Below are positions 18,001 through 21,000 of a DNA stretch of 42,756 nucleotides, piece by piece (position 1 is the first letter of the stretch; every line of letters starts with the position of its first letter). Position numbers: made by a program. Origin of the DNA: a virus (Duplodnaviria; Heunggongvirae; Uroviricota; Caudoviricetes); IMG/VR virus record IMGVR_UViG_2778261067_000008, positions 1 to 42,756 of that record; one strand, written 5' to 3'.

Positions 18001-21000
18001 AGGATATCGGCTCGCTGGTGGCGCTCATAACGCGCCGGGGAGGTTCAGGTGGAGCTAAATGACCCGACAGCAACTATAAATGCGCTGTTATGTGCTTGTG
18101 TTGTTATTACTCTGATGTTTTATCGTCGTGGTGATTCGCGGCATCGTCCTTGGGTTTCACGTTTAGCCTGGCTGATTACTGTTACATACAGTGCTGTTCC
18201 GTTGGCCTATCTCTGTGGGATTTATCCTCATTCCTCATGGCCCATTATCGTGGCGAACACTATTTTTCTTTCCGTGCTGGTGGCCGTCAGAGGCAACGTT
18301 GCACGTCTGGTTGATCATCTGAGGCACTAATGAACCAACAATTATTTCAAAAGGCGGCTGGTATTAGCGCCGGGCTGGCTGCGCGCTGGTTTCCGCACAT
18401 TGATGCGGCGATGAAGGAATTCGGCATTACAGCACCAGCGGATCAGGCAATGTTTATCGCTCAGGTAGGCCATGAGTCGATGGGGTTTAGCGCCGTAGTT
18501 GAAAATTTTAACTACACACCATCTGCGCTGGTGGCGACGTTCGGAAAGAGGATCACACAGCAGCAGGCTGATGCCCTTGGCAGAACATCCGGACATGCAG
18601 CTCGTCAGGATGCTATTGCCAATCTGGTGTATAGCAACCGACTGGGTAACAAAGCACCCGGTGATGGCTGGAAATATCGTGGTAGAGGATTAATTCAAAT
18701 CACTGGCCTTCATAATTATCGCATCTGTGGCGCGGCGCTGAAGTTAGATCTGGTGACCTCACCTGAACAACTGGAGCAGGAGCTACAGGCCGCGCGCTCA
18801 GCTGCATGGTTCTACACCTCTAAAGGCTGCATGGTCTACGGTGCTGATATTAATCGTGTTACGCGCATCATTAACGGCGGTCTGAACGGTATTGAGGATC
18901 GTAAGGTTCGATACAACAAGGCGCGGGCGGCGCTGCTGGTATGAAGATGAGTTATTGGGCGCTCATTTTAACGTTTATTGCTTGTATTGCTGGTGGTCTT
19001 GTCTGGTCAGCTAATCACTACCACGGAAAGTTTCTGAAGGAACAGAAGCGTGCTGACGCTGCGGAACAGCGAGCTGATTCTACTGAGGCTATCACCGCGA
19101 ATGTTCTGCGTACTATGGCAATAACGAACATCATTCAGGAGGCGAATCAACATGCAAAACAGCAGATCGCACTGGAGTCACAGAGAACCCAGGAAGATAT
19201 CAAAGTGGCTGTTGCGGATGATGATTGTGCTTCACGTCCTGTGCCTGCTGCCGCTGCTGACCGGTTGCGGAAATTCGCGAACGGTTTACGTGAGCGTTCC
19301 GGTGGCACCACTGCCAGCCAGCCTGACTTCTGATACTCCTGTACCGTTTATACCCAATCCGCTGACGTATGGTGCCAGTCTGGAGTTGAATGTGAGTCTG
19401 TTGTCAGCGTTGGGACAATGCAATATTGACAAAGCGGGAATTCGAAGTATCGAGATGCGCCGTAACGCTTTGCTGGCAGCAGGCAAATAGTCTGGACAAA
19501 GAACAGGAATATATTTATGCCTCCTCGAATCCCAAAAGCCTGCCGTGTTCGCGGCTGCCGCAATACCACGACTGACCCGTCAGGCTACTGCGAAAGCCAC
19601 AAAAGCGAGGGCTGGAAGCAATACAAGTCGGGCCAGTCCCGCCATCAGCGTGGTTATGGTTCGAAGTGGGACGGTATCCGGGTGCGAGTACTGAAGCGTG
19701 ACAAAGGCCTGTGTCAGTTGTGTTTGCGTGCTGGTGTGGTGCGCGAGGCGAAAACCGTTGACCACATCATCCCTAAAGCGCATGGCGGCACTGATGCCGA
19801 CAGTAATCTGCAGAGTCTGTGCTGGCCCTGCCATAAGGCGAAGACGGCCCGTGAACGGTTAAAGTGATAATAATTCTCAACTGTCTGTGAGGGAGGGGCG
19901 GGTCAAATCCCTGTGACCTGACGTCTTCCGGACTGCCCGCCCCATCGTTTTTTTATACCCGCGAAAAATGAAATTTAACCAGGAGTGCCGCATATGGCTG
20001 GAACGGCGGGGCGTTCCGGGCGTCGCCCCAAGCCAACGGCGCGCAAGGCGCTGGCCGGAAACCCCGGCAAGCGAGCCCTGAACAAAGATGAACCTGTTTT
20101 TACGCCCATCAAAGGTGTTGAGCCACCGGAGTGGTTCGCAGAAGAAAATCTCCCTCTCGCCACGATCATGTGGCAGCTGACAACCAAAGAACTCTGCGGT
20201 CAGGGCCTGCTGTGCGTGACTGACCTCGCGGTGCTTGAGCGGTGGTGCGTGGCCTACGAGTTCTGGCGACGTGCCGTGAAAAATATTGCCAGACAGGGCA
20301 ACACCATCACCGGTGCAATGGGCGGTATGGTCAAAAATCCGGAGCTGACCGCCAAAAAAGAACAGGAGTCCGAGATGAGCAGTACGGGGGCAATGCTCGG
20401 ACTCGACCCCAGCAGCCGCCAGCGTCTGATTGGCCTGGCGGGGAAGAAGAAAGCCACTAACCCGTTTCTGAAAATCATCGAATCATGAGCCGGAAATCTT
20501 ACCCCAACGTAAATGCTGCCAATCAGTATGCCCGTGATGTCGTGCGCGGAAAGATTGTGGCCTGCCAGTTTGTGATTCAGGCCTGCCAGCGCCATCTTGA
20601 TGACCTGATGGCGGAAAAAAGTAAGTCGTTTCGTTACCGCTTCGACAAGGACCTGGCTGAACGGGCCGCCAAATTTATTCAGCTGTTGCCGCACACCAAG
20701 GGTGAGTGGGCATTTAAGAGGATGCCCATCACGCTGGAGCCGTGGCAGCTCTTTGTGATCTGCTGCGCGTTTGGCTGGGTCAATAAAGGCTCCCGGCTGC
20801 GCCGCTTCCGTGAGGTGTATACCGAAATCCCCCGTAAGAACGGCAAATCGGCAATCTCTGCCGGTGTCGCCCTGTATTGTTTTGCCTGTGATAACGAGTT
20901 CGGCGCGGAAGTGTATTCCGGTGCCACGACAGAGAAACAGGCATGGGAAGTCTTTCGTCCGGCAAGACTGATGTGTAAACGCACACCCATGCTGACGGAA

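What the first reader, a model, noticed from the sequence alone, without database searches (positions are those of the whole stretch)
19868..19993. Long GC-clamped hairpin between the HNH endonuclease and small terminase genes: candidate cos or terminator
GGGGCGGG (about 19895-19902) pairs with CCCGCCCC (about 19936-19943) around a ~33-nt loop and is followed by a T-run. In HK97-type phages the HNH protein works with terminase at cos, which lies just upstream of the small terminase gene.
Basis: partly seen in the sequence, partly recalled or inferred. Interest (0 to 1): 0.4.

Follow-up and report, generated by a model that had tools for sequence, protein, structure and literature searches.

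The report
Prophage cos site (DNA packaging cut)
The "hairpin" sits on the cohesive-end (cos) site where this common E. coli prophage cuts its DNA for packaging: its right arm is the 10-base sticky end already mapped in near-identical Shigella phages, so the feature is real but already known.

Summary
GGGGCGGG (19895-19902) and CCCGCCCC (19936-19943) are perfect complements, and a T7 run follows at 19948-19954.

The cos reading is right. TGCCCGCCCC (19934-19943) is identical to the 10-nt 3' cohesive end found by sequencing phage SfI virion DNA ends. It also aligns with the annotated cos-site of phage phiP27. In an ungapped alignment, the deposited genomes of HK97, SfI, Burkholderia phi644-2 and Edwardsiella EPP-1 all begin at window position 19944.

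The hairpin itself is probably not the working part:
- Across 31-43 distinct relatives the pairing is no better than shuffled or chimeric controls.
- The central pair is broken in 24 of 31 types.
- RNAalifold finds no consensus structure.

What is conserved is a rigid, indel-free double-stranded layout:
- a G-rich block plus TCAAATC;
- a 34-bp distance from there to the top-strand nick;
- an invariant AC^YG at the bottom-strand nick;
- the 10-nt overhang;
- TTTTTA followed by CCCGCGAAAAATGAAATTT, which resembles the mapped HK97 small-terminase site.

A terminator role in this lineage cannot be excluded, but comparison does not support it.

Novelty: already known. Interest: low.

The parts
19517..19867 (+). 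HNH endonuclease gene, the packaging accessory nuclease
   Evidence: Pfam PF01844, E 2e-16. Full-length match to PDB 5h0m, the GVE2 HNH nickase, E 4e-13. Weak match to HK97 gp74, E 1e-5.
19889..19902 (.). Conserved G-rich block GAGGGAGGGGCGGG.
   Evidence: G19897 and G19898 are invariant, and the block is conserved in 43 distinct types including HK97. It keeps its position in phages whose overhang differs (phi467, Klebsiella LV-2017).
19903..19913 (.). Conserved TCAAATCCCTG motif. Its AAATC ends exactly 34 bp before the top-strand nick.
   Evidence: The 34-nt spacing is identical in the window, HK97 and phiP27. The alignment has no gaps.
19914..19929 (.). Variable spacer, fixed in length but not in sequence, often with a weak internal dyad
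   Evidence: Information content is low. Spacer cognate folds average -4.87 against -3.78 kcal/mol for chimeras. HK97 has no dyad.
19930..19933 (.). GGAC, the left flank of the cut. The inferred bottom-strand nick lies opposite 19933/19934, at AC^TG.
   Evidence: A19932 and C19933 are invariant in 43/43 types. Position 19934 is Y in 43/43 and G19935 is kept in 41/43. The nick position is deduced from the SfI 10-nt gap.
19934..19943 (+). Cohesive end TGCCCGCCCC, a 10-nt 3' overhang. The top-strand nick is at 19943/19944.
   Evidence: Identical to the SfI cos determined experimentally (record ends). Aligned with the phiP27 cos-site feature CGCCCGCCCC and with the HK97 right-end CGCCGCCAAA.
19948..19957 (.). 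T7 + ATA, a conserved A/T tract at +5..+14.
   Evidence: TTTT(T)A at 19950-19955 is 86-100% conserved at a fixed distance from the cut. Most relatives have AAATTTTT or GAATTTTT there, and one has A6.
19958..19978 (.). CCCGCGAAAAATGAAATTTAA, the putative small-terminase recognition site (cosB-like)
   Evidence: BLAST, run independently of my later pattern search, shows it nearly identical in E. coli, Edwardsiella and Burkholderia phages. It occupies +15..+35. The mapped HK97 TerS site is +15..+29, CTAACCCGATTTTTT. The assignment is by analogy only.
19994..20488 (+). Small terminase gene, P27 family. AGGAG Shine-Dalgarno sequence at 19981-19985.
20485..22218 (+). Large terminase gene (ATPase plus nuclease)
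   Evidence: PF03354 and PF20441.
22412..23653 (+). Portal protein gene
   Evidence: PF04860, E 6e-108.

Best explanation
This is the cos site of a prophage with an SfV/SfI/phiP27-type packaging module: HNH, P27-family TerS, TerL, portal and HK97-like head genes.

During packaging of concatemeric DNA the duplex is nicked on the top strand between 19943 and 19944, and on the bottom strand opposite 19933/19934. This gives 10-nt 3' cohesive ends: TGCCCGCCCC on the right end and its complement on the left end.

Shown here or in the cited papers:
- the sequence identity with mapped ends;
- the register with four deposited linear genomes;
- the gene context.

Inferred:
- TerS binds the conserved CCCGCGAAAAATGAAATTT block at about +15..+35, as HK97 TerS does at +15..+29. 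There it recruits TerL for initiation and stalls the incoming motor for termination.
- The HNH protein, a homologue of nickases that cut AC^CG, makes or stimulates the bottom-strand nick at the invariant AC^YG. TerL makes the top-strand nick.
- The upstream G-rich/TCAAATC block, held 34 bp from the nick, is a further double-stranded cos sub-site of unknown partner.

It is not a selected hairpin.
For: - (PMC3636060): the SfI virion ends lack 5'-TGCCCGCCCC-3' relative to the prophage. A gap in run-off reads, rather than an overlap, implies 3' overhangs. The window has this exact 10-mer at 19934-19943.
- the SfI record ends ...ggactgcccgcccc and begins gtcgtttttttatacccgcg.
- the phiP27 misc_feature 'cos-site' is CGCCCGCCCC at the same aligned positions.
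- the phi644-2, EPP-1 and HK97 records start at the aligned +1 and end with the aligned 10-mer. The alignment of 44 distinct types needs essentially no gaps.
- AC is invariant and YG is kept in 41/43 types at the bottom-strand nick.
- (PMC3592412): terminase-adjacent phage HNH nickases, including GVE2, cut CG|GT = AC^CG, and AC^TG is an observed star site.
- the window HNH matches the GVE2 HNH (5h0m) at E 4e-13.
- (PMC11331095): HK97 has a 10-nt 3' overhang, a TerS site at +15..+29 with an essential G:C pair and an A-tract, and gp74 stimulates cleavage.
- there is no cognate-specific complementarity between the arms (duplex -18.39 against -18.09 +/- 0.25 kcal/mol, P = 0.12). Cells paired are 65.9% against 66.3% in shuffles. 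There is no RNAalifold structure.
Against: - No virion DNA of this particular element was examined, and the prophage could be defective.
- The window has A at +1 where SfI has G.
- The conservation of 19960-19976 in my set is inflated, because most loci were retrieved with that pattern.
- Which nuclease cuts which strand is not established, even for HK97.
- In the SfV/SfI/P27 lineage the 8-bp arms are perfectly complementary in most copies. A lineage-specific use of the pairing is therefore not excluded.
Confidence: 0.9

Rival explanations
1. The stem-loop plus U-run is a Rho-independent terminator at the end of the lysis/HNH transcription unit. It would act instead of, or in addition to, cos. 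For example, it could limit read-through into the head genes in the lysogen, and the late antiterminator would override it.
For: The stem has 8 G:C pairs and is extendable through CA/UG and weaker pairs, with an MFE of -28.3 kcal/mol for 19885-19960. A U7 run follows. The feature lies in an intergenic gap on the coding strand. The perfect arms are kept in most close E. coli and Shigella copies.
Against: - The loop is 33 nt, and the U-run starts 4 nt after the 8-bp stem. The scan for canonical terminators does not list it.
- Fold z-scores are only -0.5 and -2.0.
- In relatives with the same terS and the same T-tract the arms carry central mismatches (L114, L139, L205; HK97-type overhangs with plain G-runs).
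- Pairing is no better than in shuffles, and there is no consensus structure.
- The T-tract keeps a fixed distance from the cut rather than from any stem. It is usually AAATTTTT, 6-7 nt after the C-run, and is A6 in L105.
- In HK97 the G-block lies about 266 nt downstream of the HNH stop codon, so it tracks the cut site and not the gene end.
Confidence: 0.12
2. The inverted repeat matters at the DNA level. Either the two arms extrude as a cruciform or hairpin, or they are two inverted copies of one protein-binding motif that terminase or HNH needs in order to recognise cos.
For: The two arms are the only copies of the 8-mer in the window, and the repeat exceeds the chance expectation. Both arms lie in conserved blocks of cos. 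Whole-region cognate folds are slightly better than chimeras (-23.19 against -22.26 kcal/mol, P = 0.005).
Against: - The dyad centre of the arms (19919) is 19.5 bp away from the centre of the staggered nicks (19938.5).
- A 33-bp spacer makes cruciform extrusion unfavourable (established DNA energetics; inference).
- The arms do not covary: the same left arm occurs with different right arms and the reverse.
- The arm-to-arm duplex is not better for cognate than for chimeric pairs (P = 0.12).
- HK97, the experimentally studied relative, has G8 opposite CCGCCGCC, which pairs poorly (-13.3 kcal/mol against a median of -17.5 with foreign partners).
- The small whole-region excess comes from the spacer and is inflated by shared ancestry.
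Confidence: 0.06

Closest known systems
cos of the Shigella flexneri serotype-converting phages SfI, SfV, SfII and SfIV
   Same: The DNA across terS and the cos right arm is 97-99% identical. The 10-nt end TGCCCGCCCC, the left arm and the spacer are identical. The HNH - cos - terS - terL - portal order is the same. PMC3851460 states that cos is identical among the four phages.
   Different: The window has A where SfI has G at +1, and there are a few substitutions in the spacer and the HNH 3' end. The ends of this particular prophage have not been mapped.
cos-site of the Stx2e phage phiP27 (AJ298298, misc_feature 21806-21815)
   Same: The annotated 10-mer CGCCCGCCCC aligns base-for-base with 19934-19943. 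The G-block GGGGAGGGGCGGGTCAAATCCCTG and the 34-bp spacing are the same. The TerS is of the P27 family.
   Different: The first overhang base is C rather than T. The spacer differs, and the downstream block reads CCCGCGAAATTAAAAATTT.
HK97 cos (10-nt 3' overhang, TerS site at +15..+29, gp74 HNH-stimulated cleavage)
   Same: The layout and spacings are the same: G-run + ATCAAATC, 34 bp, GAC^CGCCGCCAAA|G, then ACCCG plus an A/T tract. There is an HNH accessory nuclease and an HK97-type TerL/portal. The mechanism was taken from PMC11331095 and PMC9410871.
   Different: The overhang sequence differs and does not pair well with its G-run. TerS proteins show no detectable sequence similarity and only a modest fold match. 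The HNH gene lies about 266 nt upstream of the G-block instead of about 20 nt.
Lambda cos (cosQ - cosN - cosB)
   Same: It is tripartite in the same way: an upstream element, a staggered nick site with partial dyad symmetry, and a downstream small-terminase binding region. (Established knowledge of lambda; PMC13595911.)
   Different: Lambda makes 12-nt 5' overhangs, uses Nu1/gpA and IHF, and has no HNH protein. There is no sequence similarity. Equating the G-block with cosQ is only an analogy.

Membership tests
HK97/P27-type cos site (HNH-assisted, 10-nt 3' cohesive ends) | Lies between an HNH endonuclease gene and the small terminase gene, upstream of terL and portal | tested here: met
   ORFs and Pfam: HNH 19517-19867, PF05119 TerS 19994-20488, TerL and portal.
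HK97/P27-type cos site (HNH-assisted, 10-nt 3' cohesive ends) | Contains the sequence of an experimentally mapped cohesive end of the family | tested here: met
   19934-19943 is TGCCCGCCCC, identical to the SfI 10-nt gap. It aligns with the phiP27 cos-site feature.
HK97/P27-type cos site (HNH-assisted, 10-nt 3' cohesive ends) | The cut position coincides with the termini of deposited linear virion genomes of relatives | tested here: met
   HK97, SfI, phi644-2 and EPP-1 all start at the aligned +1 (19944) and end with the aligned 10-mer.
HK97/P27-type cos site (HNH-assisted, 10-nt 3' cohesive ends) | Virions of this element carry unit-length DNA with 10-nt 3' overhangs | not testable with these tools
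   This needs virion DNA from an induced lysogen.
HK97/P27-type cos site (HNH-assisted, 10-nt 3' cohesive ends) | A small-terminase recognition site about 15-30 bp downstream of the cut, with a G:C core next to an A-tract | tested here: inconclusive
Rho-independent (intrinsic) terminator | G+C-rich stem | tested here: met
   Eight G:C pairs, 19895-19902 with 19936-19943.
Rho-independent (intrinsic) terminator | Compact hairpin with a short loop | tested here: not met
   The loop is 33 nt with only weak internal pairs. The consensus scan, which allows loops of 3-8 nt, does not list it.
Rho-independent (intrinsic) terminator | U-tract immediately 3' of the stem | tested here: inconclusive
   U7 begins 4 nt after the 8-bp stem. 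Weak extra pairs could bring the stem up to it. In relatives the T5 run is 6-7 nt away.
Rho-independent (intrinsic) terminator | Pairing maintained in related sequences | tested here: not met
   65.9% of cells are paired against 66.3 +/- 1.1% in shuffles. The covariation score is 0.174 against 0.171. The central pair is broken in 24/31 types. RNAalifold predicts no pairs.
Lambda-type cos | 12-nt 5' cohesive ends made by Nu1/gpA terminase | tested here: not met
   The TerS is PF05119 of the P27 family. The relatives' ends are 10-nt 3' overhangs.
Described RNA family (Rfam) or tRNA-like element | Match to a covariance model at the gathering score, or an ARAGORN call | tested here: not met
   The only Rfam matches at gathering score are C4 and isrK, elsewhere in the window. 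In 19780-20080 only sub-threshold chance hits appear. ARAGORN finds no tRNA or tmRNA.

The most novel reading that the evidence does not exclude
The G-rich block plus TCAAATC (19889-19913) may be an undescribed third sub-site of HK97-style cos sites. It is held exactly 34 bp from the top-strand nick in phages whose small terminases show no detectable sequence similarity (HK97 against the P27 family). It could act like lambda cosQ by docking the HNH/TerL nuclease, so that the HNH protein nicks the bottom strand at the invariant AC^YG while TerL cuts the top strand. I could not check whether the older HK97 literature, which is not held here, already describes this block.
Probability: 0.3. Interest if true: 0.4.

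Novelty: already known. Interest (0 to 1): 0.15.

Why it matters
For annotation, this fixes the packaging origin and the virion genome ends of a prophage family present in about a quarter of complete E. coli genomes (1273 of 5426). RefSeq lists only the flanking HNH and terS genes under the match, with no feature in the gap. It also shows that a conspicuous GC hairpin followed by a T-run next to a terminase gene should not be read automatically as a terminator. There are two modest extras. The rigid cos layout shared with HK97 offers mutagenesis targets for the HK97 in vitro packaging system. The AC^YG match to the specificity of known HNH nickases makes the open question of which nuclease cuts which strand directly testable.

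Tried and rejected
- Rfam at gathering score over the whole window and at E <= 10 over 19780-20080 gave nothing relevant. ARAGORN found no tRNA-like element, despite the T-arm-like GGGTCAAATCCC.
- The consensus terminator scan did not call the site.
- Three tests for a conserved hairpin were negative for the outer arms: RNAalifold, pair counting with shuffle and slide controls, and a cognate-versus-chimera test of folding and duplex energy. Only a weak excess was found in the spacer, and it is likely inflated by shared ancestry.
- The SfV, phiP27 and Kala et al. 2014 papers are not held. A full-text search for the literal overhang sequence returned only unrelated papers.
- I considered a G-quadruplex in the G-block and a fold-back of the 3' overhang onto the left arm. 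I dropped both as untestable here and mechanistically unlikely, because there are only three G-runs and the left arm is duplex.
- The inverted 6-mer GCGGGT (19898-19903) / ACCCGC (19957-19962) was noted, but it is not above chance and position 19899 is not conserved.

Full report
OBSERVATION. GGGGCGGG lies at 19895-19902 and CCCGCCCC at 19936-19943, 33 nt apart. ATCG and T7 (19948-19954) follow. The element sits in the 126-nt gap between an HNH endonuclease ORF (19517-19867; PF01844) and a P27-family small terminase ORF (ATG at 19994, ending 20488; PF05119). The large terminase and portal genes follow.

The two arms are the only copies of this 8-mer in the window. GC-only perfect 8-bp inverted repeats with a loop of 40 nt or less occur twice in the window, against 0.26 expected from dinucleotide shuffles, and 18% of shuffles have at least one. 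As an RNA the region is not exceptional: z is -0.53 for the 126 nt and -1.99 for 19885-19960. The simple terminator scan does not list it.

WHAT IT IS. Megablast shows that the closest phage records include the Shigella serotype-converting phages SfV, SfII, SfIV and SfI, at 97-99% identity over terS. Several of those linear records start inside or right next to the hairpin.

The SfI paper (PMC3636060) reports direct sequencing of virion DNA ends and comparison with the prophage. A 10-nt stretch, 5'-TGCCCGCCCC-3', is missing from both run-off reads. That is the signature of 10-nt 3' overhangs. The window carries exactly this 10-mer at 19934-19943, which is the hairpin's right arm plus the two preceding bases.

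Other records agree:
- The SfI record ends ...cttccggactgcccgcccc and begins gtcgtttttttatacccgcg.
- The phiP27 record carries a misc_feature 'cos-site' of 10 nt, CGCCCGCCCC, at the same aligned positions.
- Burkholderia phage phi644-2 and Edwardsiella phage EPP-1 end with the aligned 10-mer and start at the aligned +1.
- So does HK97, whose 10-nt 3' overhang and HNH (gp74)-stimulated cleavage are documented (PMC11331095 and PMC9410871).
- PMC3851460 states that cos is identical in SfI, SfII, SfIV and SfV.

I therefore place the top-strand nick at 19943/19944 and the bottom-strand nick opposite 19933/19934.

IS THE HAIRPIN THE FUNCTIONAL UNIT? I collected 80 HNH-anchored loci and 119 loci carrying the downstream motif from viral contigs. 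I reduced them to 44 distinct types, to which I added phiP27, HK97, phi644-2 and EPP-1. MAFFT aligns them from the G-block to the terS-proximal motif with essentially no gaps. The conserved property is therefore a rigid spacing.

The pairing is not conserved:
- The same left arm (GGGGGAGG) occurs with CCCGCCCC, giving two central mismatches, and also with CCCGCCTCC.
- The window-type left arm occurs with CCCGCCTC.
- Overhangs of the HK97 type (CCGCCGCC) face plain G-runs.
- A duplex-energy test of each G-block against its own overhang region, compared with those of other types, gives -18.39 against -18.09 +/- 0.25 kcal/mol (P = 0.12).
- On a 31-type alignment, 65.9% of cells pair against 66.3 +/- 1.1% after shuffling. 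The covariation score is 0.174 against 0.171, and the central C:G pair is broken in 24 of 31 types.
- RNAalifold returns no consensus pairs.

The complementarity is thus what any G-rich block gives with any C-rich overhang. A weak extra signal exists in the variable spacer: many types have a short dyad, -4.87 against -3.78 kcal/mol for chimeras. It is absent from HK97, its register varies, and shared ancestry inflates the statistic.

ANATOMY OF THE SITE:
- G-rich block 19889-19902, with G19897 and G19898 invariant.
- TCAAATCYCTG at 19903-19913, whose AAATC ends exactly 34 bp before the top-strand nick in the window, phiP27 and HK97 alike.
- A spacer of fixed length and free sequence.
- GGAC at 19930-19933, with A19932 and C19933 invariant in 43/43 types. 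Y (43/43) and G (41/43) follow.
- The 10-nt overhang.
- NTC (T and C each kept in 36/43 types).
- TTTT(T)A at 19950-19955.
- CCCGCGAAAAATGAAATTTAA at 19958-19978.

In HK97 the G-block lies about 266 nt downstream of the gp74 stop codon. The block therefore tracks the cut site and not the end of the HNH gene. Phages such as phi467 and Klebsiella LV-2017 keep the G-block and its spacing with yet another overhang sequence.

HOW IT MOST LIKELY WORKS. What is shown is the identity and register with mapped ends, and the gene context. The rest is inferred.

Second, the window HNH matches the GVE2 HNH nickase (5h0m) over its full length at E 4e-13. Xu and Gupta (PMC3592412) found that terminase-adjacent phage HNH nickases, including GVE2's, cut CG|GT = AC^CG, with AC^TG as a star site. 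The bottom-strand nick deduced from the SfI ends falls exactly at the invariant AC^YG. This suggests that the HNH enzyme makes or directs that nick and that TerL cuts the top strand. Chechik et al. raise this option for HK97, but it is unproven.

Third, the G-block is probably another double-stranded sub-site. Its partner is unknown, and a cosQ-like role is only an analogy.

TERMINATOR RIVAL. For this lineage the structure could terminate some transcription, because it has a strong stem and a U7 run. Several points speak against it as the reason the sequence exists: the 33-nt loop, the 4-nt gap before the U-run, the lack of conserved pairing, and the T-tract's fixed distance from the cut rather than from any stem. 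In most relatives the tract is AAATTTTT, 6-7 nt after the C-run, and in L105 it is A6. I give this rival 0.12, as an additional function.

COMPARISON AND NOVELTY. The element passes the membership features I could test for an HK97/P27-type cos site. It fails two of the four features for an intrinsic terminator and one more is inconclusive. It is not a lambda-type cos. The same DNA is present in 1273 of 5426 complete E. coli genomes, at 100% identity in several. RefSeq annotates only the flanking genes there.

The cos site of this phage group has been known since the SfV, phiP27 and SfI papers, so the finding is already known and of low interest. I found two details that are not discussed in the papers I could read:
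- the indel-free architecture shared with HK97, including the upstream G-block;
- the coincidence of the bottom-strand nick with the AC^CG specificity of HNH nickases.

I could not access the original SfV, phiP27, HK97-genome or Kala et al. papers. I therefore cannot claim these two points are new.

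Noticed in passing
window 19889-19913; also L014 (HK97) about 575-600, L003 (phiP27) 684-708, L012 (phi467) 786-810, L013 (Klebsiella LV-2017) 781-806: A G-rich block followed by TCAAATC(Y)CTG is conserved in phages with different overhang sequences and with dissimilar TerS proteins. Its AAATC ends exactly 34 bp before the top-strand cos nick, and there are no indels across 44 distinct types. Its function is unknown.
   Followed up: partly
window 19932-19935: The invariant AC followed by YG lies exactly at the deduced bottom-strand nick. It matches the AC^CG (CG|GT) specificity reported for terminase-adjacent phage HNH nickases, including GVE2. GVE2's HNH is the best solved-structure match to the window's HNH.
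   Followed up: partly
window 19914-19929 and the equivalent spacer in L119, L121, L125, L140, L195, L213, phi644-2: Many relatives carry a short dyad in the otherwise variable spacer. Examples are CCAGAAAA/TTTTCTGG, GGAGG/CCTCC, CTGGG/CCCAG and TACGG/CCGTA. Cognate halves fold about 1 kcal/mol better than chimeras. HK97 has none and the register varies.
   Followed up: partly
window 10904-10980 and 11005-11092: Rfam matches above gathering score to isrK (Hfq-binding sRNA) and to C4 antisense RNA, adjacent on the + strand in the early/regulatory part of the prophage.
   Followed up: no
window 25509-25528: This is the only other GC-only 8-bp inverted repeat in the window: GGGGCGCG-GAAC-CGCGCCCC. 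It lies 8 nt after the stop of the 401-aa ORF 24296-25501, which by position is probably the major capsid gene. No clear T-run follows.
   Followed up: no
window 17296-17317: This is the best canonical terminator-like site in 15-25 kb: AAACCTCGC-TTCG-GCGGGGTTT followed by TTGCTTTTCT. It lies about 360 nt upstream of the putative holin/lysis cassette, a position like that of a late-operon terminator read through by a Q-type antiterminator.
   Followed up: no
window 19800-20060 against E. coli genomes: The HNH-cos-terS junction occurs in 1273 of 5426 complete E. coli genomes, with up to 4 copies per genome. 15 places are on plasmids. RefSeq lists only the two flanking genes under the match.
   Followed up: no
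U82619.2 (SfV) position 1, equivalent to window 19927; KC736978 (SfII) position 1, equivalent to window 19868: The SfV/SfIV and SfII records do not start at the mapped cut. They start 17 and 76 nt upstream of it, so their position 1 is not the physical left end. SfI, HK97, phi644-2 and EPP-1 do start at +1.
   Followed up: partly
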